From an uncultured Anaerolineales bacterium (GTDB taxonomy: Bacteria > Chloroflexota > Anaerolineae > Anaerolineales > UBA11858): 64,000 bases of DNA. Location: the NCBI GenBank assembly GCA_964629085.1, contig CAZVPR010000001.1, positions 26,517 through 90,516 on the forward strand, written 5' to 3'. Of the stretch, positions 23,058-40,049 are shown in pieces (the stretch's first letter is position 1; every line of letters starts with the position of its first letter). The position numbers and the translations under genes were made by a program. The notes below the pieces were generated by a model. It worked only from the letters and a program-made list of their open reading frames with translations, made no database searches and was not told where the DNA came from.

Positions 23058-23882
23058 TCAGAATAATGAGTTGTACTCGACCTTTGGAAAAACGGTTAAT
23101 TTTCCCCCAATGGTGGCATCGAGCATGCGACGACCGGCTTTTTCGAAGTGCATGCGGGCCAACAAGTAGCCTCGTTCAGAAGTATCCAGATCGGGAAGCT
23201 GCCAGCGGAAGCCTTTACCAAAATACCCGGGATCGAAATGATTGGGGTCATCGCCACCCGAAACTACAGTCGTATTGGGCTTCCCTTCGCTGGTGAAACT
23301 GTGATCCACGCCAATCAAGATAACTTCATCAAAACCCATGTGAAAGGCTAACTGCAAACAAACGTAGGTTACCGTTGCTCCTTCCCAAAGCCGTTCACAC
23401 ACATCATGAGCAAATTTTGGGCCGGTGTACGTCGAAAAGAGAAAATGTGTATTTTCATCGGGCTGGCCCTGGGGATAAAGCAGCCCGCGCGATCGCCAGG
23501 AAAAAAACTTGGGCATCGCTAATGATTGAAAATCCAGGTAACACTGCTCATTGACAAGGTTATTCACCGACACAAGAAAATTCGTGCGAAAACCCCAATC
23601 CGGAAATGCCAGATAAATGCGATTCATCCCAAAGGTGAATTCGTTTTTCAGTTTCGAAACATCCGTATTCTTCAAGCTGGGACCATTTCCAATCACGAAA
23701 CAGCGTTCACCATTATGTACGTCTTTCAACGCTGCCAGACGGCGAATACTCTCTCGTCGCCAGGGATGCATGACAGCCATTGGCCATTGTGCGGCACGTC
23801 GAAGCGCATAGCGCGTCTCACTAATTGGTTGCCAAATGGAGGCGGGAACCAGTGATTTGATTTTCTGCCTGTAATTTGTCAT
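23058..23882 (-). CDS. DUF115 (MAF_flag10/MptE-like) protein resembling CstII-type (GT42) ulosonic-acid transferases
   Basis: 274 aa. CFVIGNGPSLKNTDVSKLKNEFTFGMNRIY aligns by eye with the CstII N-terminus (VIIAGNGPSLKEIDYSRLPNDFDVFRCNQFY). The later block TYVCLQLAFHMGFDEVILIGVDHSF resembles GVYMCAVAIALGYKEIYLSGIDFY. Confidence 0.6.
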   Translation of the reverse strand: MTNYRQKIKSLVPASIWQPISETRYALRRAAQWPMAVMHPWRRESIRRLAALKDVHNGERCFVIGNGPSLKNTDVSKLKNEFTFGMNRIYLAFPDWGFRTNFLVSVNNLVNEQCYLDFQSLAMPKFFSWRSRGLLYPQGQPDENTHFLFSTYTGPKFAHDVCERLWEGATVTYVCLQLAFHMGFDEVILIGVDHSFTSEGKPNTTVVSGGDDPNHFDPGYFGKGFRWQLPDLDTSERGYLLARMHFEKAGRRMLDATIGGKLTVFPKVEYNSLF

Positions 23883-23885
23883 GGG

Positions 23886-24647
23886 TTATTCTGTGCTTAG
23901 GCGAGCTGTCGCGCCCCCATCGACTATCATTGCCTGGCCCGTCATGAAGGAAGATTGTTCTCCATCCGCTAAAAAATAAATCGACTGGGCTATCTCTTCC
24001 GGTAAGCCAATTTTTCCACTAACCGTTTTGCGAGCCAGATTTTCTAGACGATCCATCAGGTTTCCAGCTCCAGCATGGTCTCGGTTCATCCCAGCGCGCA
24101 GCATGGGTGTATCAACTGCACCTGGGAGAATTGAGTTGACGCGAATATTGTCAGGGGCAAATTCAATGGCCATCGCTCTGGTCAGAGCCAGCATACCGCC
24201 TTTACTGGCCGCGTACGCGGCAATATCTTTGGATGTAGCCACGGCGTGCACAGAGGATACATTCACCATCGCCCCGCCTCCCCGGCACTTCAGTAATGGG
24301 TGGGCCAGTTTTGCACTTAGAAACACCGAACGCAAATTTGATGCCATGACCGCATCCCACTCTTCAACAGTAGTCTCTAGGAGTGGCTTAGTAATTTGAT
24401 GAGCAGCGTTATTTACGAGAGCATCTAGAGTATCCGTGAAGCCTTGCGCTTGATTAAAAATCTCTTCTAACGCTGAAGCATCGGATATATCCGCCTGAAT
24501 GAATAGGCCATTATCAGGAAATTCCGAGCCAAAGGGCGCTCGATCCACACCAATTACTTGCCACCCCTTATTCGCAAATAACTGTACCGTAGCGCGACCG
24601 ATGCCGCCTGCTGCGCCGGTAATCAACATTGTTCGTGAGCCAGTCAT
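23886..24647 (-). CDS. Short-chain dehydrogenase/reductase (classical SDR)
   Basis: 253 aa. Cofactor motif ITGAAGGIGRAT, the NNAA motif, and the catalytic YAASKGG. Confidence 0.85.
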   Translation of the reverse strand: MTGSRTMLITGAAGGIGRATVQLFANKGWQVIGVDRAPFGSEFPDNGLFIQADISDASALEEIFNQAQGFTDTLDALVNNAAHQITKPLLETTVEEWDAVMASNLRSVFLSAKLAHPLLKCRGGGAMVNVSSVHAVATSKDIAAYAASKGGMLALTRAMAIEFAPDNIRVNSILPGAVDTPMLRAGMNRDHAGAGNLMDRLENLARKTVSGKIGLPEEIAQSIYFLADGEQSSFMTGQAMIVDGGATARLSTE

Positions 24648-25618
24648 TACTCTCCTGTTTTAAATTCTTCCAATTTTGAACTATCGAGACCCAGCCCATC
24701 TAAAAGGTTTCGAATTGTATTCCAGTGAACCTGTTCCCAAGCCATCGGGCTGGAATTTGCGTTGTGAGGCGCGATCAAAACATTATCCATCTCGAGCAGC
24801 GGACTGGAATTTGGCAGGGGTTCCTCTTCAAAAACATCTAACGCAGCCCCAGCGATAGTGCCATTATTAAGGGCATCGATAAGGGCCACTTCGTCCACAA
24901 TGGGGCCACGAGCCGAGTTGATAAGCACGGCTCCAGGCTTCATCATTGCCAATGTATCAGCATTGATCAAATGTTCGCTGGTTGGATTAAGATCGCAATT
25001 CAAACTCACAAAATCCGCTCGACTAAGCAAATCCACCAAAGTAGTCATCTGCAAACGATGTTCGCGCACAAAATCAGGCCTGATTTCGCGAATATCGTTG
25101 CCCAACACTTCCATGCCAAATACATTGGCTCGCCGAATGACTGCTTTACCGGTATTTCCCACACCTATCACCCCTAGGGTGCACTCATGCAAAGCTCGAC
25201 CAGGGATTTTATCCCATGTGCCGGCTTTCATCGCCCGATCCATCCAGGGTTGCCGGCGTGCAAAAGCAAGCATATACCCAAGAACCGTATCCGCAACCGG
25301 CAATGTAAATGCGTTGGGTGTATTTCCAATTTTAATACCCAGACGTTCACACGCTTCCTGATCAATTGAATCGATGCCCGTCCCCCATTTAGAGATTACC
25401 TTCAAGCGCGGCACACAAACATCCAAAACCTGGGGCGTATAGCGGTCATCACCACAAACGGCCCCATCGAATTGTCCGGCATAGGACAGGATATCTTCTT
25501 CTTCAAGACGTTCTTCCACTTCTGGGACGATTAATTCAATACCATAACTGTCGAACACTGACCGAAAGCGGTCCAAAAATGGGATCATGTACGGAGCGGT
25601 GAAAAGGACAGTATACAT
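24647..25618 (-). CDS. D-isomer-specific 2-hydroxyacid dehydrogenase family (NAD-binding)
   Basis: 323 aa. GVIGVGNTGKAV (GxGxxG), INSARGPIVDE, and the catalytic-His region IAPHNANSS. Confidence 0.85.
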   Translation of the reverse strand: MYTVLFTAPYMIPFLDRFRSVFDSYGIELIVPEVEERLEEEDILSYAGQFDGAVCGDDRYTPQVLDVCVPRLKVISKWGTGIDSIDQEACERLGIKIGNTPNAFTLPVADTVLGYMLAFARRQPWMDRAMKAGTWDKIPGRALHECTLGVIGVGNTGKAVIRRANVFGMEVLGNDIREIRPDFVREHRLQMTTLVDLLSRADFVSLNCDLNPTSEHLINADTLAMMKPGAVLINSARGPIVDEVALIDALNNGTIAGAALDVFEEEPLPNSSPLLEMDNVLIAPHNANSSPMAWEQVHWNTIRNLLDGLGLDSSKLEEFKTGE

Positions 25619-25623
25619 TGATG

Positions 25624-25677
25624 TCAGGTATCAGGTGCCAGGTTTCAGGTATCAGATGCGAATAAAAACCTGATACC
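25624..25677. repeat. Tandem heptamer array (YCAGGTN x4.5) with inverted partner (CAGGT-word type)
   Basis: tcaggta tcaggtg ccaggtt tcaggta tcag spans 25624-25655. cctgatacc (25669-25677) is the exact reverse complement of ggtatcagg within the array. Confidence 0.8.
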
Positions 25678-25690
25678 AAATAACCAATAC

Positions 25691-26362
25691 CTACTTACCT
25701 TTTTTTCTCCTCATCAAAAAGTCGACGATCTCAAAATCCAATTCTTCATCGATGTCCCAGGCTTCAGCGGCGTCAATTTCAAACATCATCGGACGCTCAC
25801 CAAGTCGATTACGGCGTTGTTGCAGGATTTCCTTAGTGAAGATATAGATACATGAGTTTTCTTCATAATTCGGAGGCAGATCTTGGGTTTGCAGAAGAAC
25901 GGCTGGATTATGGTTTATCGCGCGTCCCAGTTGATCCCACAAACGTGTCTGAATGCGTGTTACAGAAAATAGAGAGTCATACGCCGGATATTGATCTAGA
26001 AAAGATTGGATCGCATTCGAAACGGTTTCAGGACACAAAAGTGGATTCGTGCTATGCGTTTGGAGATAAAAGTCGGTCTCTACTTGCCCTGCATCATATG
26101 TCAGCACTTCATTCATTGGCACTTCGCCTGGACATAAATAATCAGGTCGTTCAATAACACGTACAGATGGGAAGTGCCGTTGCAGACCATTCATCACTTC
26201 TGAGCTATCTGTGTTCACGATAACTTCTGAAATTTCTGGGACATTCAAAAGTGTTTCAACGATGTAGTGGAAAAGAGGTTTTCCCGCAAGTAAACGATAA
26301 TTTTTCCCTGGCACTCGTTGAGAATTATGGCGCATGGGAACGAGGGCGACGATTCTAGTCAT
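25691..26362 (-). CDS. CTP_transf_3 cytidylyltransferase (acylneuraminate/ulosonate cytidylyltransferase family)
   Basis: 223 aa. The N-terminus IVALVPMRHNSQRVPGKNYRLLAGKPL matches the family P-loop-like motif. Confidence 0.75.
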   Translation of the reverse strand: MTRIVALVPMRHNSQRVPGKNYRLLAGKPLFHYIVETLLNVPEISEVIVNTDSSEVMNGLQRHFPSVRVIERPDYLCPGEVPMNEVLTYDAGQVETDFYLQTHSTNPLLCPETVSNAIQSFLDQYPAYDSLFSVTRIQTRLWDQLGRAINHNPAVLLQTQDLPPNYEENSCIYIFTKEILQQRRNRLGERPMMFEIDAAEAWDIDEELDFEIVDFLMRRKKGK

Positions 26363-26377
26363 GTCCTGATTATAATC

Positions 26378-27349
26378 CTACTCTGTCTTGTTCTCATAAT
26401 CGATTGGAGTAATCTCGCGCGGGGCAGGCGTTTTATCTGACAAAATACTTGGAGGGTAATAGAATGCCCGATGAAGTTGCGCATCGATATTCCCCGAATA
26501 ACGGTATCCTTGGTGCGTTCCCCAATACTGCAAAAAGCGAAACCAAAAAATGCTCACCCAATGGGCTCCGAGGCTCCTCTCTCGGCGAGCTTGTAATAAA
26601 TCTGAAAATGTACTCCCTAGCCACAACCCCAAAAAATTCCTAAATGTGAATTTGCTTTCAGGAAGGATTTGCTTCATAGCTATCGCTTCACGTCGATAAC
26701 GATTATAAACCTGGGCAGGTTTTTCATCATGCAAATGCACAATTTCAGCTTCAGCCACGTACGCAATCAAATACCCTTCTTGTTGCACCCAACTACTCCA
26801 GGTTAAATCTTCCAATCCGGTCAGAGATTCATTGTAGGGATTCGCTTCCCACAATGAACGCCGAATAGCGGCGTTGGCGTTATGAGCATAAGCGTGCGCT
26901 TGCCTGGGCTGTGAACTATCCGGAAAGTACTTGCGGAAAAACTGGTGTTCAGAATACTGATTGGTTTGGCCCCCACGCTGCTTTCCATAAGTAACGGCAA
27001 CTTCAGTATTACTGAAAGGTGCCAGCATTTGTTCCAACCAATCGGGATAAACCGGGTAACAATGCGCACTGATAATAACAATATATTCACCCGATGTTGC
27101 CTCAATACCCCGGTTCAAGGAACGCCCAAAGGTAAATTCCTGTGGACTGATGTTGACGATTTTTACAGGATAACCGCCTGCAATGGCTACAGTTTCATCC
27201 GTAGAACCTGAGTCAACCAGGATAGTTTCCACATCCTTTAACGTTTGCTGCGAAATGCCCTTCAGCAACCGGCCTATGTGGCCGGCTTCGTTATAGGCGC
27301 GAATGACCACCGAACAAAGTGGTCGATTACCAATCTGTGGATTGCTCAT
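26378..27349 (-). CDS. GT2-family glycosyltransferase
   Basis: 323 aa. CSVVIRAYNEAGHIGRLLKGISQQTLKDVETILVDSGSTDET. Confidence 0.8.
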   Translation of the reverse strand: MSNPQIGNRPLCSVVIRAYNEAGHIGRLLKGISQQTLKDVETILVDSGSTDETVAIAGGYPVKIVNISPQEFTFGRSLNRGIEATSGEYIVIISAHCYPVYPDWLEQMLAPFSNTEVAVTYGKQRGGQTNQYSEHQFFRKYFPDSSQPRQAHAYAHNANAAIRRSLWEANPYNESLTGLEDLTWSSWVQQEGYLIAYVAEAEIVHLHDEKPAQVYNRYRREAIAMKQILPESKFTFRNFLGLWLGSTFSDLLQARRERSLGAHWVSIFWFRFLQYWGTHQGYRYSGNIDAQLHRAFYYPPSILSDKTPAPREITPIDYENKTE

Positions 27350-28178
27350 ATCCTAATTGCACTAACAAACCTCCAGCAACCTCTTTGAACAAATATTTAT
27401 GCTCCTCTGTGAACGATTCTCGCCATTTGCCGACTTTGCCACTTCGGAATGTTGGGGAACGTGCTGGATCAATAGCAGATTTCAAAATATTTATTGTTTC
27501 TGGTTCATTTTTCTCAACTGGGAAGCCGCGCCCTCGGGCGTGATTCAGGACCTTTAGGAGAGTCTTGTCTTGATCGGTGATGAAATCTTCAAATTTCAAA
27601 ACCAAAACTTCGGAGCGTTCGAGCCAACCCAAATAAGGTTCAAAGCGTTCACGAATGTTCGGAAATTCGATTTCTAGTTCAGGTCTTCCCAAAATACTGG
27701 CGCGTAAGCGTACATCAAAATTATGCAATTCCATCTTATAAAATTGATGATGAACATGATTGGGCTCCATCTCAGTAACATAGTGGACGTGAGAAACAAC
27801 TACATCACGCGGATCGCGAAAGATAAAAAATGGAACCACACTATCCTGCGTAAGCAGGGATACAACCCCTGGCAGGGCATGCAAATGACCATAGGCGATA
27901 TCCCCCGGCCGTAAACGCCGAAGGTCACTCAAAATTTGATTTTGTGGGCGCAGTTCGCCCGTAGGGCCATCGAAGGTAAGCACAGCCGGGAGGCCACCGT
28001 CCACCGCAGGCCCTATTTTGGTCAGCCCTTGCAACACCTGAGTGAGCAAATGTGTGCCACTCTTTGGGAAAGAATTAGCGAAGAAGACAGGAACGCCTGA
28101 AAGAGAACCATTTCGGGCCAATACTTTTAGGCGACGCATTCGCCAACGGGCTAACTTGAGCAGATTTCGAATTCTCAT
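27327..28178 (-). CDS. PAPS-dependent sulfotransferase
   Basis: 283 aa. 5'-PSB-type loop FPKSGTHLL and 3'-PB-type FRDPRDVVVSHVHY. Confidence 0.8.
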   Translation of the reverse strand: MRIRNLLKLARWRMRRLKVLARNGSLSGVPVFFANSFPKSGTHLLTQVLQGLTKIGPAVDGGLPAVLTFDGPTGELRPQNQILSDLRRLRPGDIAYGHLHALPGVVSLLTQDSVVPFFIFRDPRDVVVSHVHYVTEMEPNHVHHQFYKMELHNFDVRLRASILGRPELEIEFPNIRERFEPYLGWLERSEVLVLKFEDFITDQDKTLLKVLNHARGRGFPVEKNEPETINILKSAIDPARSPTFRSGKVGKWRESFTEEHKYLFKEVAGGLLVQLGYEQSTDW

Positions 28179-29791
28179 TCCATCTCCGGCAATAGGAATG
28201 GTTTCTGTTGGGTTATCCCTTCGAAAATCACCTTCATTGATGGAGATTTCTCAATGGATAATTCCCGCCACGAAAAGGGCTCGATCTGAACATATCCTGG
28301 TGTTGGGTGAGTTTTGATGAATTTTCCAAAAGGCAAAGATACCCGAAAGAGTTGATAATACAAAAAGCGCCGGGCATTGACTTTATATTCGTCGGGCACA
28401 TTCAGTTTATTCGTAATCAAAAATTCCTCGGCCTTATTCTGATATGCCTGAGGCGATTGCGGAAAATGGACAATCGGATATTGCGTGAAACGCGCTTTTC
28501 CTCCACACAATACAGGCGTATCCAATAGTGTCGCCTCCAACCCAATGGAAGAGTTATACACCATAACAAACTTCGCCCGCCGGATCAGGTCATAAGAACT
28601 GACGTGGTCTTGCGAGTCAAAAAAGATTACATTCGGCAGCTTATCTGCCCCTTTGCTTGCCAACCAATCGCTGACACTTTCACGGGTCTGCTTACGAGTA
28701 CCAGGACGCTTTTCATCCGGATGAGCACGGATCACAAATAGAGTCTGCGGATGCGATTTGATGATTTCCAACACTAGATCCAACCAGGCGAACATTTGGG
28801 GAAATATCGTATTGGCATGGACCTGACTGGTATCAAAAACTACATTGGTAAACACCGGCACGATCTGGTTGAATTTTGCAGCATGATCTAAAAAATCATC
28901 ATCCAATCCATTCATTTCTGGCCAAAAGCGTATCCCAGCCATGGTGAAATCGCCTTTGAATCGCTTACTCAGGTAATCGTCCAGGCGGTGGTTTTGGGTC
29001 TCAGTTAGCTCAAAATCAGTTGGGATTTCAATGGGATAGGCTGTGGCATCCCCATCCGTGAAAAAGGCGGAAAACTGTTGAAAACTCACTTCTTGGGTGA
29101 TCGTACGAATGCCATGCTTGCGTGCTGCCCAGCGCGCCGTCGCCTCAGGGAATTGCAAACCGTTGAAAAGCACAACAGTTTGCGGTTTTAATTCCCGCAA
29201 AAATTTATCAAATTCAACTGCAATATTATAGGCTGACAAGATATATGCCTGAAGTTGATGGCGATTGGCCTTGTTGTCAACCAGGTGATGTTGTCGCAAA
29301 GCCCAGCGCAGCGAAGGCAGCACCAGTTTTCCAAGTGGAATAGTCTGAGAATCAAAAGTGAATTGGAAATTGGACAGTTCAGCCAGGGAAAGGTTTGCGA
29401 TTTCTTCCGACAAAGTTTGATTCTGTTGATAATCAAACCAGTGAACATCCGAGTGAGCGGTTAGTTTTTTGGATTGGGAAATACAAATTTGACAGGGCGG
29501 ATCAGCCAGGTAGTCATCTGGATTGGTACCCAAAACACAACGGCTCATACCCGCGCGGCAAACAAAATGAACAACCGGTACACCCTCGAGCTGGAGCCCC
29601 CAAGATGTTAGCTGAGTAAAAGCTGCATTTAAACTCAAGCCGCCCAAGCGGGACGAAGCATTAAAAAAGACTGCCGGGCTATATTGCAAATCCCGCTTTG
29701 AATTTTTTTGAATTCTGCGAGAAAGATTTGCAACCCGCCAATCCGCTTTCAATCGCAGCAAAAGCAGATGTAATCGCTGATTTATATTCAC
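28175..29791 (-). CDS. GT-B enzyme with HP motif, Capsule_synth (KpsC/KpsS)-like / CMP- or CDP-donor transferase candidate
   Basis: 538 aa. LFVIRAHPDEKRPG...FVMVYNSSIGLEATLLDTPVLCGGKARF fits the pattern HP...nS.iGlEA...g.PV...G. Confidence 0.5.
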   Translation of the reverse strand: MNINQRLHLLLLRLKADWRVANLSRRIQKNSKRDLQYSPAVFFNASSRLGGLSLNAAFTQLTSWGLQLEGVPVVHFVCRAGMSRCVLGTNPDDYLADPPCQICISQSKKLTAHSDVHWFDYQQNQTLSEEIANLSLAELSNFQFTFDSQTIPLGKLVLPSLRWALRQHHLVDNKANRHQLQAYILSAYNIAVEFDKFLRELKPQTVVLFNGLQFPEATARWAARKHGIRTITQEVSFQQFSAFFTDGDATAYPIEIPTDFELTETQNHRLDDYLSKRFKGDFTMAGIRFWPEMNGLDDDFLDHAAKFNQIVPVFTNVVFDTSQVHANTIFPQMFAWLDLVLEIIKSHPQTLFVIRAHPDEKRPGTRKQTRESVSDWLASKGADKLPNVIFFDSQDHVSSYDLIRRAKFVMVYNSSIGLEATLLDTPVLCGGKARFTQYPIVHFPQSPQAYQNKAEEFLITNKLNVPDEYKVNARRFLYYQLFRVSLPFGKFIKTHPTPGYVQIEPFSWRELSIEKSPSMKVIFEGITQQKPFLLPEME

Positions 29792-29847
29792 AAAGATTGT
29801 ATATTTTTTATTGAATTGATCGCGCTATTTTTGAATGCAGAATTTAT

Positions 29848-31734
29848 CTACTCAGAAATAGCTTCGAGATAGGCATCTGAAAGACGATTGATAGCAATAA
29901 TGAAACCTTCGCCCCCTCGTTGGTGCCCGCGCCAGATTTCGGGAATCATTGTGCCGTGATATTCCTTGACAATCTTGAAGAAACGCACCCAGTCGATATT
30001 TCCCTGACCAATTTGCAACCCTTCCCCATCCAAGCCAGCCGCATCGGAGAGATGCAAATGCGATATGTAGGGCAAAATGACTTTAACTTGTTCATAAAAA
30101 TCGACTTGTGCCCAATTGCAATAAAGCTTATGATGCGAAGTGTCGTAGCAAGTTTTCAATCCCATTGAATCAAGGAATTCTTTAATTTCATACGTATCCA
30201 TGAAGGCATTCGTCAACCACTGACCGCCAAAGTACCACGGATGAGGGGGTAAGTTCTCGATGAGTAATTCAATGTCATCGCTGTCAAGCGCTTCAACGGA
30301 GCGACCAAGATTATCATATAGACCCTTACGATCCTCAATTGGCTGATCCAGACTGGCGGCACCTGGGTGAACGACTACTTTTGGAGTCCCTGAGAAATGA
30401 GGAGCCATATCTCGGGTTACGTTTATGGCGCGCTGCAAGATATCCACAGACGCTTGGCGGTGATCATCATCAAATGTGCATAAATCGACCAAATGGTTAG
30501 TCCAAAACTCGGGGGCATGCACCACTAACTGTACATCCAAATCATCACCGGGATAAGGTTCATCCAGGTCCTTATCTGTGAAGTGGAATTCCAACAAGGG
30601 AGGTTCATATTTCAGCATTTCGCGAAAATCGTTGAAGCGAACAACCAGGCCCCACTTCATGGGCAGCGTATGTTCCACATCTAATGTTGTGCGCTGTCCC
30701 AAATCTACGGGTAGAAATGGATCATCCGCTTCAATGACGCGAGAAGCTATCCGTCCAACTAATTCTGTATACCGCTGGGGGGATAAACCTTGCCCAGGTC
30801 CTTTGACAGTGATCACTTCACGGGTAATTTCTTCTCCCGGCTGGATCTGATGTGTGGCTACCAAGCTTTTTGCCAGTACTTCACGGTTAAGGATTTCTCC
30901 CATCGTAAAAAATTTCTCATCGCCAGTTCCCAGCGCCAAAGTAACTTGTCGGATATCACGGACCATTTTTCTAAATCCATGCGGCTCTAAACTTGAAGCA
31001 TGGTCTGGACCATCCATAGTGCGATCGAGCGTGATATGCCGTTCAATGACGCTAGCTCCTAAAGCTGCCGCCACAGTCGATACCGAAATACCCCGTTCAT
31101 GGCCTGAGTAACCAACAGGCACTCCAAATTCCCGCAGGCGTTCCATAAATCTTAAATTGATATCTGCAAAGGCGGCCGGATAAGCACTGTTGCAATGTAA
31201 CAATGCAAATTCTGCTTTTTTCTCCTTTAGGAAATTCACCGTTGTCTCAACTTCTTCCATGCGAGACATTCCTGTAGAAACAATCAGAGGTTTCTCCTTG
31301 CCAATCAAATAATCAATCAGAGGCAAGTTGATCATATCCGCTGAGGCAACTTTGTAGGCAGGAACCCCCAAGGATTCAACAAAATCGGCGCTGTCATCAT
31401 CGAAAGCCGAACACATGAAAGTTATGCCTTTTTTCTGACAATATTCGACGATTTTGAAATAGTCATCATTAGAGAGTTCGACTCTTTGCAAAATGGGGAG
31501 CAGGTAATTGAGATTCTTCTCGCCAACATTGGCGTTATCCAAATATTTCTTTGGATATAACTTTTCCAAATTTCGTTTCTGGAATTTGACCGCATCTGCG
31601 CCAGCATCCACCGAAGCATCGATCAGTTCAAAGGCATATTCGAGAATACCATTATGATTTACCCCAATCTCGGCAATAATATAGGGCGAATGCCCGTCGC
31701 CTACGTGTCGATCACCAATTTTAATTTCTGGCAT
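29848..31734 (-). CDS. NeuB-family ulosonic acid synthase + SAF domain fused to a xylose-isomerase-like (AP_endonuc_2) TIM-barrel domain
   Basis: 628 aa. NeuB motifs: YIIAEIGVNHNG, AVKFQK, KVASADMINLPLIDY, VSTGMS, GYSGHERG. SAF region: LVATHQIQPGEEITREVITVKGPGQGL. C-terminal ~280 aa: ...VVHPGAASL...IENLPPHPW...ISHLHLSDAAGLDGEGLQIGQGNIDW. Confidence 0.8.
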   Translation of the reverse strand: MPEIKIGDRHVGDGHSPYIIAEIGVNHNGILEYAFELIDASVDAGADAVKFQKRNLEKLYPKKYLDNANVGEKNLNYLLPILQRVELSNDDYFKIVEYCQKKGITFMCSAFDDDSADFVESLGVPAYKVASADMINLPLIDYLIGKEKPLIVSTGMSRMEEVETTVNFLKEKKAEFALLHCNSAYPAAFADINLRFMERLREFGVPVGYSGHERGISVSTVAAALGASVIERHITLDRTMDGPDHASSLEPHGFRKMVRDIRQVTLALGTGDEKFFTMGEILNREVLAKSLVATHQIQPGEEITREVITVKGPGQGLSPQRYTELVGRIASRVIEADDPFLPVDLGQRTTLDVEHTLPMKWGLVVRFNDFREMLKYEPPLLEFHFTDKDLDEPYPGDDLDVQLVVHAPEFWTNHLVDLCTFDDDHRQASVDILQRAINVTRDMAPHFSGTPKVVVHPGAASLDQPIEDRKGLYDNLGRSVEALDSDDIELLIENLPPHPWYFGGQWLTNAFMDTYEIKEFLDSMGLKTCYDTSHHKLYCNWAQVDFYEQVKVILPYISHLHLSDAAGLDGEGLQIGQGNIDWVRFFKIVKEYHGTMIPEIWRGHQRGGEGFIIAINRLSDAYLEAISE

Positions 31735-31802
31735 AGTTTTTCTCCGAAATCAATAACCATGAAAACTGCAAACACATTCTCACTGTGCTTTGTGCATTCG
31801 TT

Positions 31803-32549
31803 TCATGTAAACTGGAATCCCAGATCATCTACGGTGATTTCCCCACTTTCCAGCAACCGTTCTGCCCTTCTCCAATCATCAGGTGAATCAATGTCAATCC
31901 ATTCGCTGGGATCAATCACCAATGGAAGAATGTGATCACCCGTCATAGAATTTTTTCGCAAAATCGTTTCTGTCCAGGCGGCGTCAACATAACCAGTTTG
32001 CCAATAGATTTCTGGTAAAACTTGGCGAGGCTGGTTGTAGGCTTCTCCAGGGACGCCAAGTTCGTTGCCAATGGGGTTCAAAAACCCATCAACTCCAATG
32101 CGCCACATTTTGAATGGATTCTGGAAAGGAACACAAACGGTACGCACGGCATCAGCATCGGGGCGCTCAACCAGCCGTAATACCGCCTGATCAATATGCC
32201 AAACACGTCGAAAGGGTGAGGTCGGCCGCAACTGAACTACAATATCGGGGACATAGTCTTCATTATCCGCCAACCATTCCAGGGCATGCCCAAACACGGG
32301 CAGGTCTGGCGTCGAATCTTCAGCGTGTTCTGTTGGCCGAATAAAGGGGGTTTCAGCCCCAAAGCGACGCGATGTTTCTGCAATCTCTTCGTCGTCCGTG
32401 GAGACAATCACTCGCGAAACTGTCTCTGCAGTAAGGCCAGCAATGATACTGTAAGCAATCAATGGATAGCCAGCGAAATCTAAGATATTCTTTCTGGGGA
32501 TGGTTTTCGATCCACCACGCGCGGGTATCAAAGCAAGAACTTCAGTCAT
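31803..32549 (-). CDS. CTP_transf_3 cytidylyltransferase (CMP-ulosonic acid synthetase, NeuA-like)
   Basis: 248 aa. VLALIPARGGSKTIPRKNILDFAGYPLIAYSI. Confidence 0.8.
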   Translation of the reverse strand: MTEVLALIPARGGSKTIPRKNILDFAGYPLIAYSIIAGLTAETVSRVIVSTDDEEIAETSRRFGAETPFIRPTEHAEDSTPDLPVFGHALEWLADNEDYVPDIVVQLRPTSPFRRVWHIDQAVLRLVERPDADAVRTVCVPFQNPFKMWRIGVDGFLNPIGNELGVPGEAYNQPRQVLPEIYWQTGYVDAAWTETILRKNSMTGDHILPLVIDPSEWIDIDSPDDWRRAERLLESGEITVDDLGFQFT

Positions 32550-32579
32550 CAGTTTTTATCCGGGGATGAAAGATCAACG

Positions 32580-33407
32580 TCACCAGGTTGTCCAACCTCC
32601 ATCTATCACCAAATTTGCACCAGTCATATATTTTGAGGCATCCGAAGCCAAAAAAAGCAATGCTCCATTCATTTCATCTTTTTCAGCCATACGGCCAAAT
32701 ACAGATCGTGCTGAATAAGCTTGAACGAATTCATCATCATGATCGTTAAACACACCCCCTGGTGTGATCGCGTTTACGCGAATTTGCGCATCTCTATCAG
32801 CATAATAGGCTGCCAAATATTTGGTCATTCCTAGAACCCCAGCTTTGGTCACAGTGTAATAGACCGGCTTATAATGAGCTGGTTGGCCTTCACGTTGATA
32901 CAATCTTTGATCCGGTGCGGTTAGCCCGTAAATCGACGATATGTTGATAATCACACCATGTTTCTGAGCTAGCATTGGTTTTACGGCTGCTTGAGAACAC
33001 AAAAAAACGCCTGTCAGGTTGACATCCACAGCTTGCTGCCAAAGTTCCAAGGGGTAATCTTCAAATGCGCCAGAATGTACAGTATCGGAAGTAGGATCGA
33101 ACTTCGGATCAAGGGCCGCGCTGTTCACAAGGATGTCAAGGCGGCCAAATCTCTCCAGGGTTGAGTCCACCATATCTTGAACAGAATCCCCCCTGGTCAC
33201 ATCTGTCTTTATGCCTAAAGATGAATATCCACTATGGGACAGAGAAGCTGCCAAATCTTTGGCAGCTTCTTCATCGATATCAGCAATTACAATGGAGGCA
33301 CCTGCACGTGCGAGAGTCCAGCAAAACTCTTCACCCAATAACCCTATCCCACCAGTGACAACGGCCACTCGGTCGGAAAGGTTAAAAAGCTCTGATAATT
33401 CCGACAT
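32580..33407 (-). CDS. Short-chain dehydrogenase/reductase
   Basis: 275 aa. VAVVTGGIGLLGEEF and the catalytic YTVTKAG. Confidence 0.8.
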   Translation of the reverse strand: MSELSELFNLSDRVAVVTGGIGLLGEEFCWTLARAGASIVIADIDEEAAKDLAASLSHSGYSSLGIKTDVTRGDSVQDMVDSTLERFGRLDILVNSAALDPKFDPTSDTVHSGAFEDYPLELWQQAVDVNLTGVFLCSQAAVKPMLAQKHGVIINISSIYGLTAPDQRLYQREGQPAHYKPVYYTVTKAGVLGMTKYLAAYYADRDAQIRVNAITPGGVFNDHDDEFVQAYSARSVFGRMAEKDEMNGALLFLASDASKYMTGANLVIDGGWTTW

Positions 33408-33417: not shown

Positions 33418-35136
<1,719 letters not shown>

Positions 35137-36174: not shown

Positions 36175-36194
36175 TTAGAACCATCCATTTTCAA

Positions 36195-37100: not shown

Positions 37101-37111
37101 AAAGCTACTTT

Positions 37112-37360
37112 TCAGTCGAAACGGTCCAAACGCAAATTATTCAATAGAAATGAGGTCACCAAATCTAAGAAGATCCCCTGCACGACAATCAACCCTAAAC
37201 ACAAAAAAGCATAGAGAATAATATTGTCATGGTACAGGGAATTTAGCCAATTTCCAAGGAAACGTAATACGGCAAAGAAATACGCAATGACAACGAATGC
37301 ATAAAGAGCTAGCTCGATGAGATAATTGCGAAAATGGTTTAGGGTATTATCATCGGACAT
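37112..37360 (-). CDS. Hypothetical small membrane protein (2-3 TM)
   Basis: 82 aa. Hydrophobic segments LALYAFVVIAYFFAVL and ILYAFLCLGLIVVQGIFL. It is tightly spaced upstream of the TauE gene. Confidence 0.45.
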   Translation of the reverse strand: MSDDNTLNHFRNYLIELALYAFVVIAYFFAVLRFLGNWLNSLYHDNIILYAFLCLGLIVVQGIFLDLVTSFLLNNLRLDRFD

Positions 37361-37366
37361 TTTAAA

Positions 37367-38341: not shown

Positions 38342-38417
38342 TGTTTCCTTTGTTGAAAAAGGGGCCATGAAGTAAAACAAGACTATTTACAGAACCACAA
38401 TTTTATTATGCATGCGC

Positions 38418-38456: not shown

Positions 38457-40049
38457 ATGAATAATATCAAAAAGAACTGGTTTTTTCTATTGCTGTTGGT
38501 TATTTTTGCAGTTTATACAGGGGTCTATATTTTCCAGACCAGCTTCATTTCAAACAATGTGCGCTATTTCGTGCTTTTCGACGATGCTATGATATCCATG
38601 CGCTATGCCAAGAATCTTGCCGAAGGCCATGGTCTGGTTTGGAACCCGGGCGAGACTCCGGTGGAGGGCTATACCAACCCACTTTGGGTGATCTTCATGG
38701 CGCTCTTCCACTTATTCCCAATTGCATCAACGAAAATCAGCCTGGCCATCCAAATCAGTGGCGCGATTTTTCTGCTCGCAAATTTGATTTTCGTAAAACG
38801 GATCGCAGAATTCATAAGCGACAAACCGATAGTGCCAATCCTGGCCGTAATTCTTGCTGCGTTCTACACCCCATTAAACAACTGGGGGCTGCAGGGCATG
38901 GAAGTCAGCCTTTTGGTGCTGCTGCTCAGTGCAGCGGTCTTCAAGCTGCTCAACGATACAAAAAATGACAAATTTTCCCCATGGCCTTATATAGTTCTCG
39001 GCCTGAGCACGCTGGTACGCATCGATATGGCCGTGCCCTATTTGGTGGTTCTAGGATTTGCAATTCTCTTCATCACTAAATATCGTCGGCAACATATCCT
39101 GTGGGGAATTGGCACGCTTGTCTTTTTCCTGGCGATACAAACCATCTGCCGTTTATGGTATTACGGGGAACCCGTTCCTAACACGTATTACTTGAAGATC
39201 GGCGGCATCTCCATTTTCCAACGCATCAAACGCGGTATTCTCGTTTTGTATCAATTCCTGTGGGATATGAATTGGGTGTTGTTCCTGCTGCCCTTCATTT
39301 TCGTGTTGCTGAAAAGAGAACGCCAAAGCATTCTTTTGGCCCTGCTCATAGCTGGGCAAATTGCCTACAGTGTCTATGTTGGGGGTGATGCCTGGGAGCA
39401 CAAAGGCGGTGCCAACCGATATATGGCCGTAGCCATCCCCCATTTCTTCATTCTCTTTTCTTGGGCTATTAGCCTGGTGGTTCAGGCTGTTTCGCAGATT
39501 GCTGAGAAAGTCAAAACTCCCTTGCCGGGCAAGGTGCTTTCAAATCTAACCCTGATCGCAATCGCGTTGATCAGTCTGGCAAATTTCAACTTTATCCAAC
39601 AAGATTTCAAATATTTGCAACGCTGGCTGCTCATTCGGCCGCCCCTTTTCATTGAAGGCAACAAAGAAGCTGTGGCCATTGCACAAGCCGTCGAGAAAAT
39701 CACTACACCCCAGGCCCAGATTGCTGTCGTCACCGCTGGCGCAATCCCATACTTTTCCGAACGTCCCGCTCTGGATCTACTGGGGAAAAATGACGCTTAC
39801 ATTGCCAGTCTCCCCAGTCATCCTCCTGCCTCACTGGAAGACCTCCGCCCAGGGCACATGAAGTGGGATTATGATTATTCAATTGGAGAACTAAAACCGG
39901 ATATGATCTTGCAATTGTGGGGTGATCAAGAAATCGCGTACGAATATATCGAGCAGGTTTATACTGTTGTGGAAGTTGATGGTATGCTGTTCTCAGCTCG
40001 CAGTGATTCGCAAGATATTTTGTGGGAACGCGTCGATTCAACCCCGTGA
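38457..40049 (+). CDS. Polytopic membrane protein, GT-C-like glycosyltransferase candidate
   Basis: 530 aa. First loop YFVLFDDAMISMRYAKNLAEGHGLVWNPGETPVEGYTNPLW contains a DD motif. It has more than 10 TMs and a soluble tail of about 100 aa. It is the only large plus-strand gene in the window. Confidence 0.5.
   Translation: MNNIKKNWFFLLLLVIFAVYTGVYIFQTSFISNNVRYFVLFDDAMISMRYAKNLAEGHGLVWNPGETPVEGYTNPLWVIFMALFHLFPIASTKISLAIQISGAIFLLANLIFVKRIAEFISDKPIVPILAVILAAFYTPLNNWGLQGMEVSLLVLLLSAAVFKLLNDTKNDKFSPWPYIVLGLSTLVRIDMAVPYLVVLGFAILFITKYRRQHILWGIGTLVFFLAIQTICRLWYYGEPVPNTYYLKIGGISIFQRIKRGILVLYQFLWDMNWVLFLLPFIFVLLKRERQSILLALLIAGQIAYSVYVGGDAWEHKGGANRYMAVAIPHFFILFSWAISLVVQAVSQIAEKVKTPLPGKVLSNLTLIAIALISLANFNFIQQDFKYLQRWLLIRPPLFIEGNKEAVAIAQAVEKITTPQAQIAVVTAGAIPYFSERPALDLLGKNDAYIASLPSHPPASLEDLRPGHMKWDYDYSIGELKPDMILQLWGDQEIAYEYIEQVYTVVEVDGMLFSARSDSQDILWERVDSTP

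What the first reader, a model, noticed from the sequence alone, without database searches (positions are those of the whole stretch)
23058..33407. Ulosonic-acid module 1: CstII/DUF115-like transferase, two CMP-type cytidylyltransferases, a NeuB fusion, two SDRs and a 2-hydroxyacid dehydrogenase, but no recognisable aminotransferase, epimerase or hydrolase
- **Seen:**
  - GNGPSLK..D transferase motif (23058..23882).
  - CTP_transf_3 N-termini (25691..26362 and 31803..32549).
  - NeuB motifs (29848..31734).
  - Dehydrogenase motifs (23886..25618 and 32580..33407).
- **Established:** canonical Neu5Ac, Pse and Leg pathways need, besides the synthase and the CMP-transferase, a 2-epimerase/hydrolase or a dehydratase/aminotransferase/acetyltransferase set.
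- **Inference:** this enzyme mix (three oxidoreductases, no PLP enzyme) suggests a non-amino or keto-modified ulosonic acid, for example Kdn- or Kdo-like or something new. Alternatively the amino steps are supplied by module 2.
Basis: partly seen in the sequence, partly recalled or inferred. Interest (0 to 1): 0.62.

Follow-up and report, generated by a model that had tools for sequence, protein, structure and literature searches.

The report
Non-canonical sialic-acid-like sugar operon
An uncultured marine Anaerolineales bacterium carries a tightly packed operon that most likely makes, activates, epimerises, transfers and sulfates a sialic-acid-like (probably Kdn-type, non-amino) sugar, built around an unstudied synthase fused to a metal-dependent TIM-barrel domain that recurs in dozens of species.

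Summary
It skipped three genes inside the interval (GT2, a sulfotransferase, a KpsC/KpsS-like transferase) and the PAPS synthase next to it.

The interval is the core of a co-directional operon of an uncultured Anaerolineales bacterium (Chloroflexota). In 34 related species loci the order GFO oxidoreductase, PAPS synthase, SDR, CMP-transferase, NeuB-TIM fusion, KpsC-like transferase is kept in 30-34 of 34.

- **No amino-sugar genes.** No DegT aminotransferase and no convincing NeuC homologue was found in the window, 84 related loci or about 6 kb past the window end.
- **Non-canonical synthase.** The NeuB domain scores below the NeuB and PseI cut-offs and lacks the Arg314 equivalent.
- **Obligate partner domain.** The fused TIM barrel resembles MJ1311 and endonuclease IV, and this subfamily occurs mostly as NeuB fusions.
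- **Kdn signal.** One cytidylyltransferase carries the Arg shown experimentally to confer Kdn specificity.
- **Oxidoreductases.** SDR, CMP-transferase and GFO mirror ElaC/B/A, a CMP-sugar epimerisation module.

Verdict: a new variant of nonulosonic-acid biosynthesis, probably Kdn-type and linked to sulfation. The TIM domain's role is unresolved: phosphatase is favoured, isomerase is the rival.

The parts
33418..35136 (-). L: bifunctional ATP-sulfurylase / APS-kinase (PAPS synthase).
   Evidence: Pfam PUA_2 + ATP-sulfurylase (2e-82) + APS_kinase (9e-64). Present on the same strand upstream of the fusion in 34/34 related loci.
32580..33407 (-). K: classical SDR of the PtmA/ElaC type; proposed reductase of a CMP-keto-nonulosonate.
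   Evidence: Pfam. Best NCBIfam PRK09186 (196 bits, below the cut-off of 255) and PtmA model 136 bits. Top PDB hit is 6UH2, the search model used to solve ElaC (PMC13656337). Present in 33/34 loci.
31803..32549 (-). J: CMP-nonulosonate synthetase with the canonical 'PARGGSK..P.KN' motif and a hydrophobic (Met202) C5-pocket residue.
   Evidence: Pfam. PseF model 148 bits (below 205). Top PDB hit 6IFD. Met202 in 67/77 orthologues. Present in 33/34 loci.
29848..31734 (-). I: NeuB-SAF-TIM fusion, 628 aa. NeuB domain about 30919-31626, SAF about 30700-30870, AP_endonuc_2 TIM about 29851-30657.
   Evidence: Pfam. NeuB_NnaB 348.6 bits (below 399.65) and PseI 252 bits (below 340). 68-94% identical in about 75 Anaerolineales species and 47-54% in CPR, DPANN, Methanosarcinales and Desulfobacterales MAGs. 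Gly312 replaces NmNeuB Arg314. TIM is closest to MJ1311 and EndoIV.
28175..29791 (-). H: KpsC/KpsS-like (GT107-type) glycosyltransferase; proposed CMP-ulosonate transferase.
   Evidence: Pfam Capsule_synth 33 bits (above the cut-off of 20). hhalign against E. coli KpsC gives probability 71%, with D320 aligned to D160 and H357-P358 to H194-P195; against NeuC the probability is 0.08%. Present in 34/34 loci.
27327..28178 (-). G: PAPS-dependent sulfotransferase.
   Evidence: Pfam Sulfotransfer_1. 'PKSGTH' and 'RDPRD' motifs. Present in 32/34 loci.
26378..27349 (-). F: GT2 glycosyltransferase.
   Evidence: Pfam 2.4e-24. Present in 23/34 loci (an undercount, because it often sits at the locus edge).
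25691..26362 (-). E: second cytidylyltransferase, CMP-Kdn-synthetase-like.
   Evidence: Best PDB hit is PpNeuA (9t4z), 2.7e-17. Arg186 aligns with the PpNeuA Arg196 gatekeeper, and is invariant in 41/41 sequences. R196L switches Kdn to Neu5Ac (PMC12934254).
24647..25618 (-). D: D-isomer 2-hydroxyacid dehydrogenase (PGDH/GhrB-like); accessory tailoring enzyme.
   Evidence: Pfam; NCBIfam. Present in only 11/34 related loci.
23886..24647 (-). C: second classical SDR; accessory tailoring enzyme.
   Evidence: Pfam. Present in 9/34 loci.
23058..23882 (-). B: DUF115/MptE-like protein with a CstII-type CMP-binding motif; proposed second CMP-nonulosonate transferase.
   Evidence: Pfam PF01973 46 bits (above 34.6). 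Best PDB hits are CstII. Present in 8/34 loci.
40038..41048 (-). Q: GFO/IDH/MocA oxidoreductase, ElaA-like; proposed oxidant of the CMP-sugar.
   Evidence: Pfam. PDB 3EZY (the ElaA search model) is among the top hits. Present in 30/34 loci on the same strand, and contiguous with L-K-J-I in L034. Also next to the fusion in a Woesearchaeota MAG.
41118..42161 (-). R: second sulfotransferase (Sulfotransfer_3), adjacent to Q.
   Evidence: Pfam. Present in 25/34 loci.

Best explanation
The interval is the centre of a single co-directional operon that builds a CMP-activated nonulosonic (sialic-acid-like) acid without any amino-sugar tailoring, modifies it while it is on CMP, attaches it to a cell-surface glycan and sulfates that glycan.

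Proposed steps:
1. The NeuB domain of the 628-aa fusion condenses PEP with a manno-type hexose taken straight from central metabolism, most likely as the 6-phosphate. This gives a Kdn-type (5-hydroxy) acid. This step is inferred.
2. The fused MJ1311/endonuclease-IV-like metal TIM domain performs the step that is obligatorily coupled to NeuB. Most likely it removes the 9-phosphate. This is the least certain step, at about 0.4; the alternative is isomerisation of the sugar substrate.
3. Two cytidylyltransferases make CMP-sugars. E carries the Kdn-specific Arg. J has a hydrophobic pocket residue.
4. The GFO oxidoreductase Q and the SDR K oxidise and re-reduce one hydroxyl of the CMP-sugar, as ElaA and ElaC do, yielding an epimer. 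In the closest relatives the 2-hydroxyacid dehydrogenase D and the SDR C add a second tailoring branch next to E.
5. The KpsC/KpsS-like H and the CstII/DUF115-like B transfer the CMP-sugars.
6. The operon-encoded PAPS synthase L feeds sulfotransferases G and R.

Shown here: domain identities, motif conservation, synteny, and the absence of amino-sugar genes. Inferred: substrates, order of steps, the TIM reaction and the target of sulfation.
For: - **Synteny.** In 34 species-level Anaerolineales loci with a full 10 kb on each side, H and L occur in 34/34, J and K in 33/34, G in 32/34 and Q in 30/34. All lie on the fusion's strand, in the order Q-L-K-J-I-H. A Woesearchaeota MAG keeps SDR + CTP_transf_3 + GFO + fusion together.
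- **No amino-sugar genes.** There are no DegT hits in the window or 84 loci, and the only NeuC-family hit is one weak match inside an H-like gene. None appear in the annotated relatives or beyond the window end.
- **Non-canonical NeuB.** The domain scores below both curated cut-offs. PEP, metal and catalytic positions align with N. meningitidis NeuB, but the Arg314 position is Gly. E. coli NeuB, C. jejuni PseI and the window's own NeuB2 keep Arg. The AFP domain of human NANS, which uses 6-phosphosugars, also lacks it. In those of the 150 family representatives that matched the motif pattern (26), the position is S, G, T, C or A and never R.
- **TIM domain.** The nearest solved relative is MJ1311 (profile E 6e-13), followed by endonuclease IV. 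The Foldseek top hit is M. tuberculosis endonuclease IV. hhalign to E. coli Nfo aligns HPG, IEN, CxDTxH and HLxDA, that is Nfo H109, E145, D179, H182 and H216. This TIM subfamily occurs mostly as NeuB fusions: 89 of the top 150 representatives carry NeuB, 29 may be stand-alone and 32 are fragments.
- **E is CMP-Kdn-synthetase-like.** See and PMC12934254.
- **K, J and Q match the Ela enzymes.** They share nearest PDB relatives with ElaC, ElaB and ElaA (PMC13656337).
- **H is KpsC-like.** The nucleophile Asp and the HP motif are conserved.
- **B is CstII-like**.
- **Sulfation.** G has intact PAPS-binding motifs and L is a complete PAPS synthase.
Against: - No biochemical data exist for any of these proteins, and all 79 related loci come from MAGs.
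- J, the cytidylyltransferase that always sits beside the fusion, has Met at the gatekeeper position, which fits an N-acylated sugar better.
- AAC(3)-like N-acetyltransferase + DUF4910 pairs occur near the fusion in 23/34 loci. CE4 deacetylases sit near it in two distant loci. Both hint at an amino sugar somewhere in the glycan.
- No sugar-phosphate phosphatase is known in the AP_endonuc_2 superfamily. hhalign scores the TIM domain higher against the epimerase UlaE (76%) than against Nfo (42%). The Nfo D229/H231 pair is not conserved in register: 'DGEG' replaces MJ1311's 'DDEH'.
- Distant loci carry NDP-sugar 4,6-dehydratases and heptose-nucleotide genes. If these feed NeuB, a 6-phosphate substrate is impossible there.
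- The sulfotransferases may act on other residues of the polymer.
Confidence: 0.5

Rival explanations
1. The pathway is the same overall, but the fused TIM domain is a sugar or sugar-phosphate isomerase or epimerase. It would make the aldose substrate for NeuB from a common sugar, for example a ketose-to-aldose or C2-epimer conversion yielding mannose or ManNAc. It would not be a phosphatase.
For: - Most characterised AP_endonuc_2 enzymes are sugar epimerases, isomerases or dehydratases.
- The Foldseek list is dominated by ketose 3-epimerases. UlaE has the best TM-score, 0.70.
- hhalign probability is highest for UlaE, 76%.
- The generic Glu-Asp-His-Glu metal site is conserved (E493, D531, H561, E599).
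- The aromatic-rich invariant loop 'PWYFGGQW' looks like a sugar-binding feature.
Against: - The extra invariant His residues ('HAPE', 'HPG') that endonuclease IV and MJ1311 have are not aligned to His in UlaE.
- The nearest sequence relatives are MJ1311 and endonuclease IV, not epimerases.
- The loss of the Arg314 equivalent parallels human NANS, which uses phosphosugars.
Confidence: 0.3
2. The product is an ordinary N-acylated nonulosonic acid (Neu5Ac, or a Leg/Pse derivative). Its precursor enzymes (NeuC, or dehydratase/aminotransferase/acetyltransferase/hydrolase) are encoded elsewhere in the genome. K, J and Q would then be a true ElaABC-type epimerase of that sugar.
For: - J has the canonical NeuA/PseF N-terminal motif and a hydrophobic gatekeeper (Met202). 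Its best PDB hit is 6IFD, which PMC13656337 describes as the CMP-pseudaminic acid synthetase PseF.
- ElaABC acts on CMP-Leg5,7Ac2 (PMC13656337).
- AAC(3)-like acetyltransferases occur nearby in 23/34 loci, and directly beside the fusion in L002 and L003.
Against: - No DegT and no convincing NeuC-type gene is found within 10 kb of the fusion in 84 loci, nor anywhere in the 64-kb window.
- The NeuB domain is below both curated cut-offs and lacks the Arg314 equivalent that NeuB and PseI share.
- E carries the Kdn-specific Arg in 41/41 sequences.
- H is not NeuC-like.
Confidence: 0.17
3. The acid is not a nonulosonic acid but a shorter or longer ulosonic acid. It could be Kdo-like, from a pentose, or a C10 acid, from a heptose. 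It would be made by a NeuB-type instead of a KdsA-type synthase.
For: - H is related to beta-Kdo transferases.
- E has a KdsB-like 'R..RVPGK' N-terminal motif, and the third cytidylyltransferase (50790-51704) scores best on KdsB models.
- Heptose-nucleotide genes lie beside the fusion in L076 and L078.
Against: - All characterised NeuB-family enzymes make nine-carbon acids.
- E's closest characterised relative is a CMP-Kdn synthetase, with matching specificity residue.
- The KpsC/KpsS fold says only that the donor is a CMP-ulosonate.
Confidence: 0.07
4. The genes are an accidental neighbourhood of unrelated glycan genes rather than one pathway.
For: The window is a very large, heterogeneous glycan island with many glycosyltransferases and two ulosonic modules.
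Against: - Gene order and strand are conserved in 30-34 of 34 species-level loci.
- The core set recurs in an archaeon.
- Intergenic gaps are -23 to +72 nt (coordinates).
Confidence: 0.02

Closest known systems
ElaABC CMP-legionaminic acid 8-epimerisation module of Acinetobacter baumannii KL49 / Vibrio vulnificus (PMC13656337)
   Same: It has the same three enzyme types placed next to a NulO synthase: a Gfo/Idh/MocA oxidoreductase (Q), a CTP_transf_3 cytidylyltransferase (J) and a PtmA-type SDR (K). K and J have as top PDB hits the very entries used as search models for ElaC and ElaB (6UH2, 6IFD). Q hits the ElaA model 3EZY among its top six.
   Different: There are no lga/leg genes (dehydratase, aminotransferase, acetyltransferase, hydrolysing epimerase) nearby. 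A PAPS synthase is inserted between Q and K in 34/34 loci. The substrate is therefore unlikely to be Leg5,7Ac2. K is below the PRK09186 and PtmA cut-offs.
Kdn pathway: Kdn-9-P/Neu5Ac-9-P synthase (animal NANS, Bacteroides BT1714) + HAD phosphatase + CMP-Kdn synthetase (Prymnesium PpNeuA, PMC12934254)
   Same: A NeuB-family synthase with an AFP/SAF domain that lacks the Arg314 equivalent, as the human NANS domain does. No amino-sugar genes are needed. E shares the Kdn-gatekeeper Arg of PpNeuA.
   Different: The putative phosphatase would be an AP_endonuc_2 TIM barrel fused to the synthase, not a free HAD enzyme. Use of a phosphosugar substrate is untested. Two cytidylyltransferases are present.
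[quoted passage not shown]
   Same: A TIM barrel with the motifs HAP(E/F), HPG, EN, DxxH and HxHxxD, and a Glu after the last strand (PE in the fusion). It is the closest solved sequence relative (profile E 6e-13). There is a weak CbiR hit.
   Different: It is fused to NeuB. The 'DDEH' of MJ1311 (corresponding to Nfo D229/H231) is 'DGEG' here. There is no evidence of DNA or cobamide substrates. The function of MJ1311 itself is unknown.
KpsC/KpsS (GT107) beta-Kdo transferases of E. coli group 2 capsules
   Same: H aligns over 200 columns with KpsC. The nucleophile Asp160 and the His-Pro motif are conserved. Pfam Capsule_synth is above its gathering score.
   Different: It has a single catalytic module of 538 aa with a long N-terminal region. 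The organism is monoderm-type with no kps export genes. The donor is probably a C9 rather than a C8 acid.
CstII (GT42) sialyltransferase and Maf/DUF115 proteins
   Same: B has the N-terminal 'GNGPSLK..D.S.L.N.F' nucleotide-binding motif and the 'G(V/I)D' motif in the same order, and it matches PF01973.
   Different: Overall similarity is very weak (E about 0.01). B is present in only 8 of 34 related loci. The catalytic His equivalent was not established.
YcjQ/YcjR/YcjS of E. coli (dehydrogenase + AP_endonuc_2 4-epimerase + GFO dehydrogenase)
   Same: It combines a GFO oxidoreductase, an AP_endonuc_2 TIM barrel and a second dehydrogenase (annotation).
   Different: The TIM domain here stays fused to NeuB in loci that lack the GFO and SDR partners. 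hhalign to YcjR gives only 15% probability.

Membership tests
N-acetylneuraminate synthase NeuB/NnaB (TIGR03569) | Whole-protein score above NCBIfam's curated cut-off | tested here: not met
   348.6 bits against a cut-off of 399.65. NeuB2 scores 241.6.
N-acetylneuraminate synthase NeuB/NnaB (TIGR03569) | Conserved catalytic, PEP-binding and metal-binding positions of N. meningitidis NeuB | tested here: met
   E22, K50, Q52, K128, H212, E231, H233 and D244 align with identical residues of Nm NeuB. The roles assigned to these residues come from memory of the 1XUU literature.
N-acetylneuraminate synthase NeuB/NnaB (TIGR03569) | Arg314 of the SAF/AFP domain, the residue mutated in PDB entries 4IPI and 4IPJ | tested here: not met
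   The fusion has Gly312 ('VKGPG'). Nm NeuB, E. coli NeuB, Cj PseI and NeuB2 all have Arg. It is never Arg among the family representatives that matched the motif pattern.
N-acetylneuraminate synthase NeuB/NnaB (TIGR03569) | Partner hydrolysing UDP-GlcNAc 2-epimerase (NeuC) in the cluster | tested here: not met
   No convincing WecB/NeuC-type hit in the window or 84 loci; the single weak hit (E 5e-4) lies inside an H-like gene. The H family against E. coli NeuC gives probability 0.08%.
Pseudaminic acid synthase PseI (TIGR03586) | Score above the curated cut-off, with PseB/C/H/G partners for this synthase | tested here: not met
   252.3 bits against 340.25. No aminotransferase is present. A true PseB exists, but in module 2 beside the other NeuB.
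ElaABC-type CMP-nonulosonate epimerisation module | Gfo/Idh/MocA oxidoreductase + CTP_transf_3 + PtmA-type SDR co-located with a NulO synthase | tested here: met
   Q occurs in 30/34 loci and J and K in 33/34, on the same strand and contiguous. They share nearest PDB relatives with the Ela proteins.
ElaABC-type CMP-nonulosonate epimerisation module | Substrate CMP-Leg5,7Ac2, supplied by lga/leg genes | tested here: not met
   No DegT aminotransferase and no LegG/NeuC-type gene nearby.
ElaABC-type CMP-nonulosonate epimerisation module | The SDR belongs to the PtmA/PRK09186 family by the curated cut-off | tested here: inconclusive
   PRK09186 is the best of 212 SDR models, but at 196 bits against a cut-off of 255. 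The PtmA model gives 136 bits against 350.
CMP-Kdn synthetase (PpNeuA type) | Arg at the C5-pocket gatekeeper position (PpNeuA Arg196) | tested here: met
   E Arg186 aligns with it in 'RLGE' and is invariant in 41/41 sequences. J has Met and E. coli NeuA has Phe at this position.
CMP-Kdn synthetase (PpNeuA type) | Kdn preferred over Neu5Ac in an assay | not testable with these tools
   This needs the purified enzyme.
GT107 KpsC/KpsS beta-Kdo transferases | Pfam Capsule_synth match, nucleophile Asp and HP motif | tested here: met
   33 bits against a cut-off of 20. D320 aligns with KpsC D160 and H357-P358 with H194-P195. The titles of PDB 8FUW and 8FUX name D160.
GT42 CstII / DUF115 | PF01973 match and the N-terminal GNGPSL nucleotide-binding motif | tested here: met
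   46.2 bits against a cut-off of 34.6. The motif aligns with CstII residues 6-38.
GT42 CstII / DUF115 | Catalytic base equivalent to CstII His188 | not tested
   The alignment does not extend reliably that far.
Endonuclease IV (trinuclear-metal phosphoesterase) | All nine metal ligands (Nfo H69, H109, E145, D179, H182, H216, D229, H231, E261) | tested here: inconclusive
   Five align directly with E. coli Nfo: H456, E493, D531, H534 and H561. H406 and E599 are placed via MJ1311 and the strand ends of the model. The D229/H231 pair is replaced by 'DGEG'. The ligand list itself is from established literature (Hosfield 1999, cited in PMC7733943).
Ketose 3-epimerase / UlaE-type sugar epimerases | Glu-Asp-His-Glu metal site and significant profile similarity | tested here: inconclusive
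   UlaE gives hhalign probability 76%, but several of the fusion's invariant His residues have no counterpart. Foldseek TM-scores are 0.55-0.70.
PAPS-dependent sulfotransferases | 5'-PSB (PKxGT) and 3'-PB (RDP) motifs | tested here: met
   'PKSGTH' and 'RDPRD' are present in G. Pfam Sulfotransfer_1 is matched.

The most novel reading that the evidence does not exclude
A NANS-like phosphosugar route to a deaminated sialic acid operates widely in uncultured prokaryotes (Anaerolineales, CPR, DPANN, some methanogen relatives). In it an endonuclease-IV-like TIM barrel has been recruited as the nonulosonate-9-phosphate phosphatase and permanently fused to the synthase. In Anaerolineales the resulting epimerised Kdn-type sugar is itself O-sulfated, which to my knowledge would be the first bacterial sulfated nonulosonic acid.
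Probability: 0.15. Interest if true: 0.8.

Novelty: new variant of a known kind. Interest (0 to 1): 0.6.

Why it matters
Nonulosonic acids are usually predicted from the canonical Neu, Leg or Pse gene sets. This operon would be missed or mis-called by such rules.

- It is conserved in dozens of Anaerolineales species, a group abundant in marine, sediment and sludge communities where Kdn and sulfated polymers are detected chemically without known producers (PMC10483923).
- The NeuB-TIM fusion defines a sizeable enzyme family with no studied member: 135 clusters at 50% identity with E<=1e-30.
- Resolving the TIM reaction would either add a new chemistry, a sugar-phosphate phosphatase, to the endonuclease IV superfamily, or reveal a new way of feeding NeuB.
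- A PAPS synthase embedded in a CMP-sugar operon makes the idea of bacterial sulfated sialic-acid-like sugars directly testable.

Tried and rejected
- **H as the 'missing' NeuC.** Foldseek ranked UDP-GlcNAc 2-epimerases first by E-value, though with TM-scores of only 0.2-0.35. hhalign gave 0.08% probability for E. coli NeuC against 71% for KpsC, with catalytic motifs conserved. Rejected.
- **TIM domain as a YcjR-like epimerase working with the GFO and SDR enzymes.** The fusion persists in loci without those partners, and hhalign to YcjR gives 15%. Rejected.
- **Module 2 as the supplier of amino steps.** It contains PseB, an RmlD-like reductase and NeuB2, but no aminotransferase. Rejected.
- **Reaching past the window end.** A look-up with the last gene of the window failed because no identical product is on record. 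The RmlD-like gene worked.
- **Expression evidence.** The region occurs in four marine DNA runs. The metatranscriptomes of the same study hold none of its words, so nothing can be said about expression.
- **Literature.** No paper in the library describes a NeuB/AP_endonuc_2 fusion or nonulosonic acids in Chloroflexota. The MJ1311 structure paper is not held.
Curated HMM cut-offs and residue checks were used instead.
- **PDB search for ElaA/B/C themselves** gave no entries under those names. The link rests on shared nearest relatives.

Full report
**Observation**

- 23058-23882: a DUF115/MptE-like protein.
- 23886-24647: an SDR.
- 24647-25618: a D-2-hydroxyacid dehydrogenase.
- 25691-26362 and 31803-32549: CTP_transf_3 cytidylyltransferases.
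- 29848-31734: a 628-aa NeuB protein.
- 32580-33407: a second SDR.

E-values run from 1e-12 to 1e-85, so chance is excluded.

The 'GNGPSLK..D' motif is there. The best PDB sequence matches of that protein, seven of the ten listed, are CstII sialyltransferases, through two collinear motifs. 'CstII/DUF115-like' is therefore a fair description.

- Three genes inside its interval: GT2 at 26378-27349, a sulfotransferase at 27327-28178 and a Capsule_synth-type protein at 28175-29791.
- The bifunctional ATP-sulfurylase/APS-kinase immediately upstream, at 33418-35136.
- The identity of the NeuB fusion partner, which is an AP_endonuc_2 (xylose-isomerase-like) TIM barrel.

From 35136 to 18741 all genes share one strand, with gaps of -23 to +72 nt.

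**Organism and conservation**

The fusion's closest homologues are all from Anaerolineae/Anaerolineales (Chloroflexota) metagenome bins. The region itself is present in marine metagenomes.

A scan of one genome per species returned 79 loci.
- About 75 are Anaerolineales MAGs with 68-94% identical full-length fusions.
- Full-length fusions at 47-54% identity occur in a Woesearchaeota, a Saccharibacteria, a Doudnabacteria, a Methanosarcinales and a Desulforapulum MAG.

I compared all window proteins with these loci by tblastn. Among 34 Anaerolineales-type loci with a full 10 kb on each side:
- the KpsC-like gene H and the PAPS synthase L occur in 34/34;
- cytidylyltransferase J and SDR K occur in 33/34;
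- sulfotransferase G occurs in 32/34;

These always lie on the fusion's strand, in the order Q-L-K-J-I-H.

The DUF115 protein B, SDR C and 2-hydroxyacid dehydrogenase D occur in only 8-11 of 34, so they are accessory. The second cytidylyltransferase E is found in at least 23/34. That is an undercount, because E often lies at the edge of the fetched DNA.

In the Woesearchaeota locus an SDR, a CTP_transf_3 and a GFO enzyme again flank the fusion. There the fusion carries an extra C-terminal methyltransferase.

**Are the canonical genes really missing?**

- tblastn with E. coli WecE (DegT aminotransferase family) found nothing at E<=1e-3 in the 64-kb window or in any of 84 loci.
- WecB (the NeuC/LegG family) gave a single weak hit, inside an H-like gene.
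- Four relatives with precomputed Pfam annotation show no aminotransferase, Epimerase_2 or PseG either.
- A 201-kb contig that carries identical copies of the module-2 genes extends about 6 kb past the window end. It shows MarR, three NDP-sugar epimerase/dehydratases and Wzm/Wzt, and again no aminotransferase.
- Module 2 holds a bona fide PseB (498.9 bits against a cut-off of 407.75). It is followed by an RmlD-like reductase rather than PseC, then the second NeuB.
- Neither NeuB reaches the curated NeuB or PseI cut-offs.

**The NeuB-TIM fusion**

*NeuB domain.* It aligns with N. meningitidis NeuB over 330 residues, with the catalytic, PEP and metal positions identical. The Arg314 position is Gly312. 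Arg314 is the single SAF-domain residue mutated in PDB entries 4IPI and 4IPJ.
- Arg is kept in E. coli NeuB, C. jejuni PseI and the window's own NeuB2.
- Arg is absent in the AFP domain of human sialic acid synthase. By established knowledge that enzyme uses 6-phosphosugars.
- Among those of the 150 family representatives that matched the motif pattern, the position is S, G, T, C or A.

*TIM domain.* An AlphaFold model of this domain has pLDDT 82.
- Its closest solved sequence relative is MJ1311 (profile E 6e-13), followed by endonuclease IV.
- Foldseek puts M. tuberculosis endonuclease IV first, followed by ketose 3-epimerases and UlaE.
- hhalign to E. coli Nfo aligns the 'HPG', 'IEN', 'CxDTxH' and 'HLxDA' motifs, which correspond to Nfo ligands H109, E145, D179, H182 and H216.
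- 'HAPE' matches MJ1311's 'HAPF'.
- MJ1311's 'DDEH' is 'DGEG' here, so one of the three metal sites is altered.
- UlaE scores a higher hhalign probability (76% against 42%) but shares fewer of these residues.
- YcjR scores 15%.

*Distribution.* A search of 1.84 billion representatives found 422 relatives at E<=1e-10 and 135 at E<=1e-30. Of the top 150, 89 carry NeuB, including a class of 700 aa or more; three of the four members scanned have N-terminal CBS domains. Another 29 may be stand-alone and 32 are fragments.

The TIM reaction is therefore tied to the NeuB reaction itself. I favour dephosphorylation of a 9-phosphate product, for four reasons.
- The ligand set resembles that of a phosphoesterase.
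- The loss of Arg parallels NANS.
- Consecutive steps are a common reason for a fusion.
- The conserved core would be self-sufficient if it starts from Man-6-P.

A substrate-isomerase role remains nearly as likely.

**The oxidoreductases and cytidylyltransferases**

A 2026 study shows that in Acinetobacter KL49 a Gfo/Idh/MocA enzyme (ElaA) oxidises C8-OH of CMP-Leg5,7Ac2. A CTP-transferase (ElaB) makes that CMP-sugar and an SDR (ElaC) re-reduces it to the 8-epimer. Their structures were solved with the search models 3EZY, 6IFD and 6UH2 (PMC13656337).

Here K's top PDB hit is 6UH2 and J's is 6IFD. Q hits 3EZY among its top six. K's best NCBIfam model is PRK09186, the PtmA-like family. Together with the synteny, this makes Q, J and K an Ela-like oxidise-then-reduce epimerisation set acting on a CMP-nonulosonate.

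E's best PDB match is PpNeuA, the CMP-Kdn synthetase of Prymnesium parvum. That enzyme's Arg196 dictates Kdn specificity, and R196L switches it to Neu5Ac (PMC12934254). After correcting an 18-residue numbering offset, Arg196 aligns with E Arg186 in an identical 'RLGE' motif. Arg186 is invariant in 41/41 sequences.

At the same position J has Met, in 67/77 orthologues, and E. coli NeuA has Phe. The lone cytidylyltransferase beside the Methanosarcinales fusion also has Arg.

This is the strongest positive evidence for a deaminated, Kdn-type product. J's hydrophobic residue keeps an N-acylated second product possible.

**Transferases and sulfation**

H was modelled at pLDDT 85. Foldseek was ambiguous between UDP-GlcNAc 2-epimerases and KpsC. 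Profile comparison settled it.
- KpsC: probability 71%, with H D320 aligned to the KpsC nucleophile D160 and H357-P358 to the HP motif.
- KpsS: 27%.
- NeuC: 0.08%.

H is thus a CMP-ulosonate glycosyltransferase, not the missing hydrolase. B is a second, CstII/DUF115-type candidate transferase.

G has intact PAPS-binding motifs. The PAPS synthase sits between Q and K in every related locus, which ties sulfation to this pathway. The sulfated atom is unknown.

**Comparison with known systems and novelty**

The parts are all known kinds: a NeuB-family synthase, CMP-synthetases, an Ela-like epimerisation pair, GT107- and GT42-like transferases, and sulfotransferases. The assembly is not.
- It fails the membership tests for NeuB, PseI and the Leg-specific Ela system.
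- It replaces the precursor-supplying genes by a fused MJ1311/endonuclease-IV-like domain.
- It embeds PAPS synthesis.

No paper in the searchable library mentions this fusion or nonulosonic acids in Chloroflexota. I rate it a new variant of a known kind, with interest 0.6.

Its reading of the oxidoreductases and its fallback on module 2 are not.

Noticed in passing
window 50790-63968 (module 2); also L034:179-5167: The second ulosonic module pairs a true PseB (above the curated cut-off) with an RmlD-like 4-reductase instead of the PseC aminotransferase. Next come a NeuB below all cut-offs, a GT4, an AAC(3)-like acetyltransferase, DUF4910 and a KdsB-like cytidylyltransferase. This suggests a 5-acetamido-7-hydroxy (mono-amino) Pse-like acid. 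The same PseB-reductase-NeuB2-GT4-cytidylyltransferase order recurs in L034.
   Followed up: partly
L070:5816-8707: A Woesearchaeota MAG encodes a 963-aa triple fusion, NeuB-SAF-TIM-methyltransferase. It is flanked by an SDR, a CTP_transf_3, a GFO oxidoreductase and a CE4 deacetylase.
   Followed up: partly
representative proteins P0263, P0286, P0294, P0310: A large class of 740-770-aa proteins has an N-terminal extension in front of NeuB-SAF-TIM; CBS domains were detected in P0263 and P0294. Of the top 150 TIM-domain relatives, 34 are NeuB-TIM proteins of 700 aa or more.
   Followed up: partly
L046:14829-16640 and L028:14309-15969: In other Anaerolineales the space between the KpsC-like gene and the sulfotransferases holds a class-II aminoacyl-tRNA-synthetase-like protein and a GNAT. 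They sit next to the AAC(3)-like/DUF4910 pair, which hints at aminoacyl or N-acyl decoration of the glycan.
   Followed up: no
L076:12955-15127 and L078:12768-14807: Heptose-nucleotide genes lie beside the distant fusions, together with NDP-sugar 4,6-dehydratases: a GmhA-like SIS protein plus an HldE-like kinase/adenylyltransferase in L076, and an NTP_transferase-CBS-GHMP-kinase fusion in L078.
   Followed up: no
window 13891-17541, with 10233-11799 and 5249-6670: A 1216-aa protein combines an N-terminal SAM methyltransferase with GT4 glycosyltransferase domains (two matched stretches). It lies next to a Wzm/Wzt-type ABC transporter and a Wzy_C/O-antigen-ligase-like protein. This is an O-antigen-style, ABC-transporter-dependent assembly line in a Chloroflexota genome.
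   Followed up: no
window 35350-40049: Between the PAPS synthase and the GFO gene the window carries a Usp protein, a TauE/SafE anion permease, an SH3-like protein and a 530-aa ORF with no Pfam hit (38457-40049). That ORF is the only long plus-strand ORF that does not overlap a minus-strand gene in an otherwise all-minus 64-kb window. Related loci often have Q-L contiguous instead.
   Followed up: no
window 18741-23037 and 11796-13907: Three PMT/PMT_2 (GT-C) membrane glycosyltransferases alternate with GT2 enzymes directly downstream of the ulosonic genes. This suggests polyprenol-phosphate-sugar-dependent extracytoplasmic glycosylation steps in the same operon.
   Followed up: no
L089:4684-5046: In the contig that extends the window, a 23S_rRNA_IVP-family gene lies between the Wzm and Wzt genes just upstream of module 2.
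   Followed up: no
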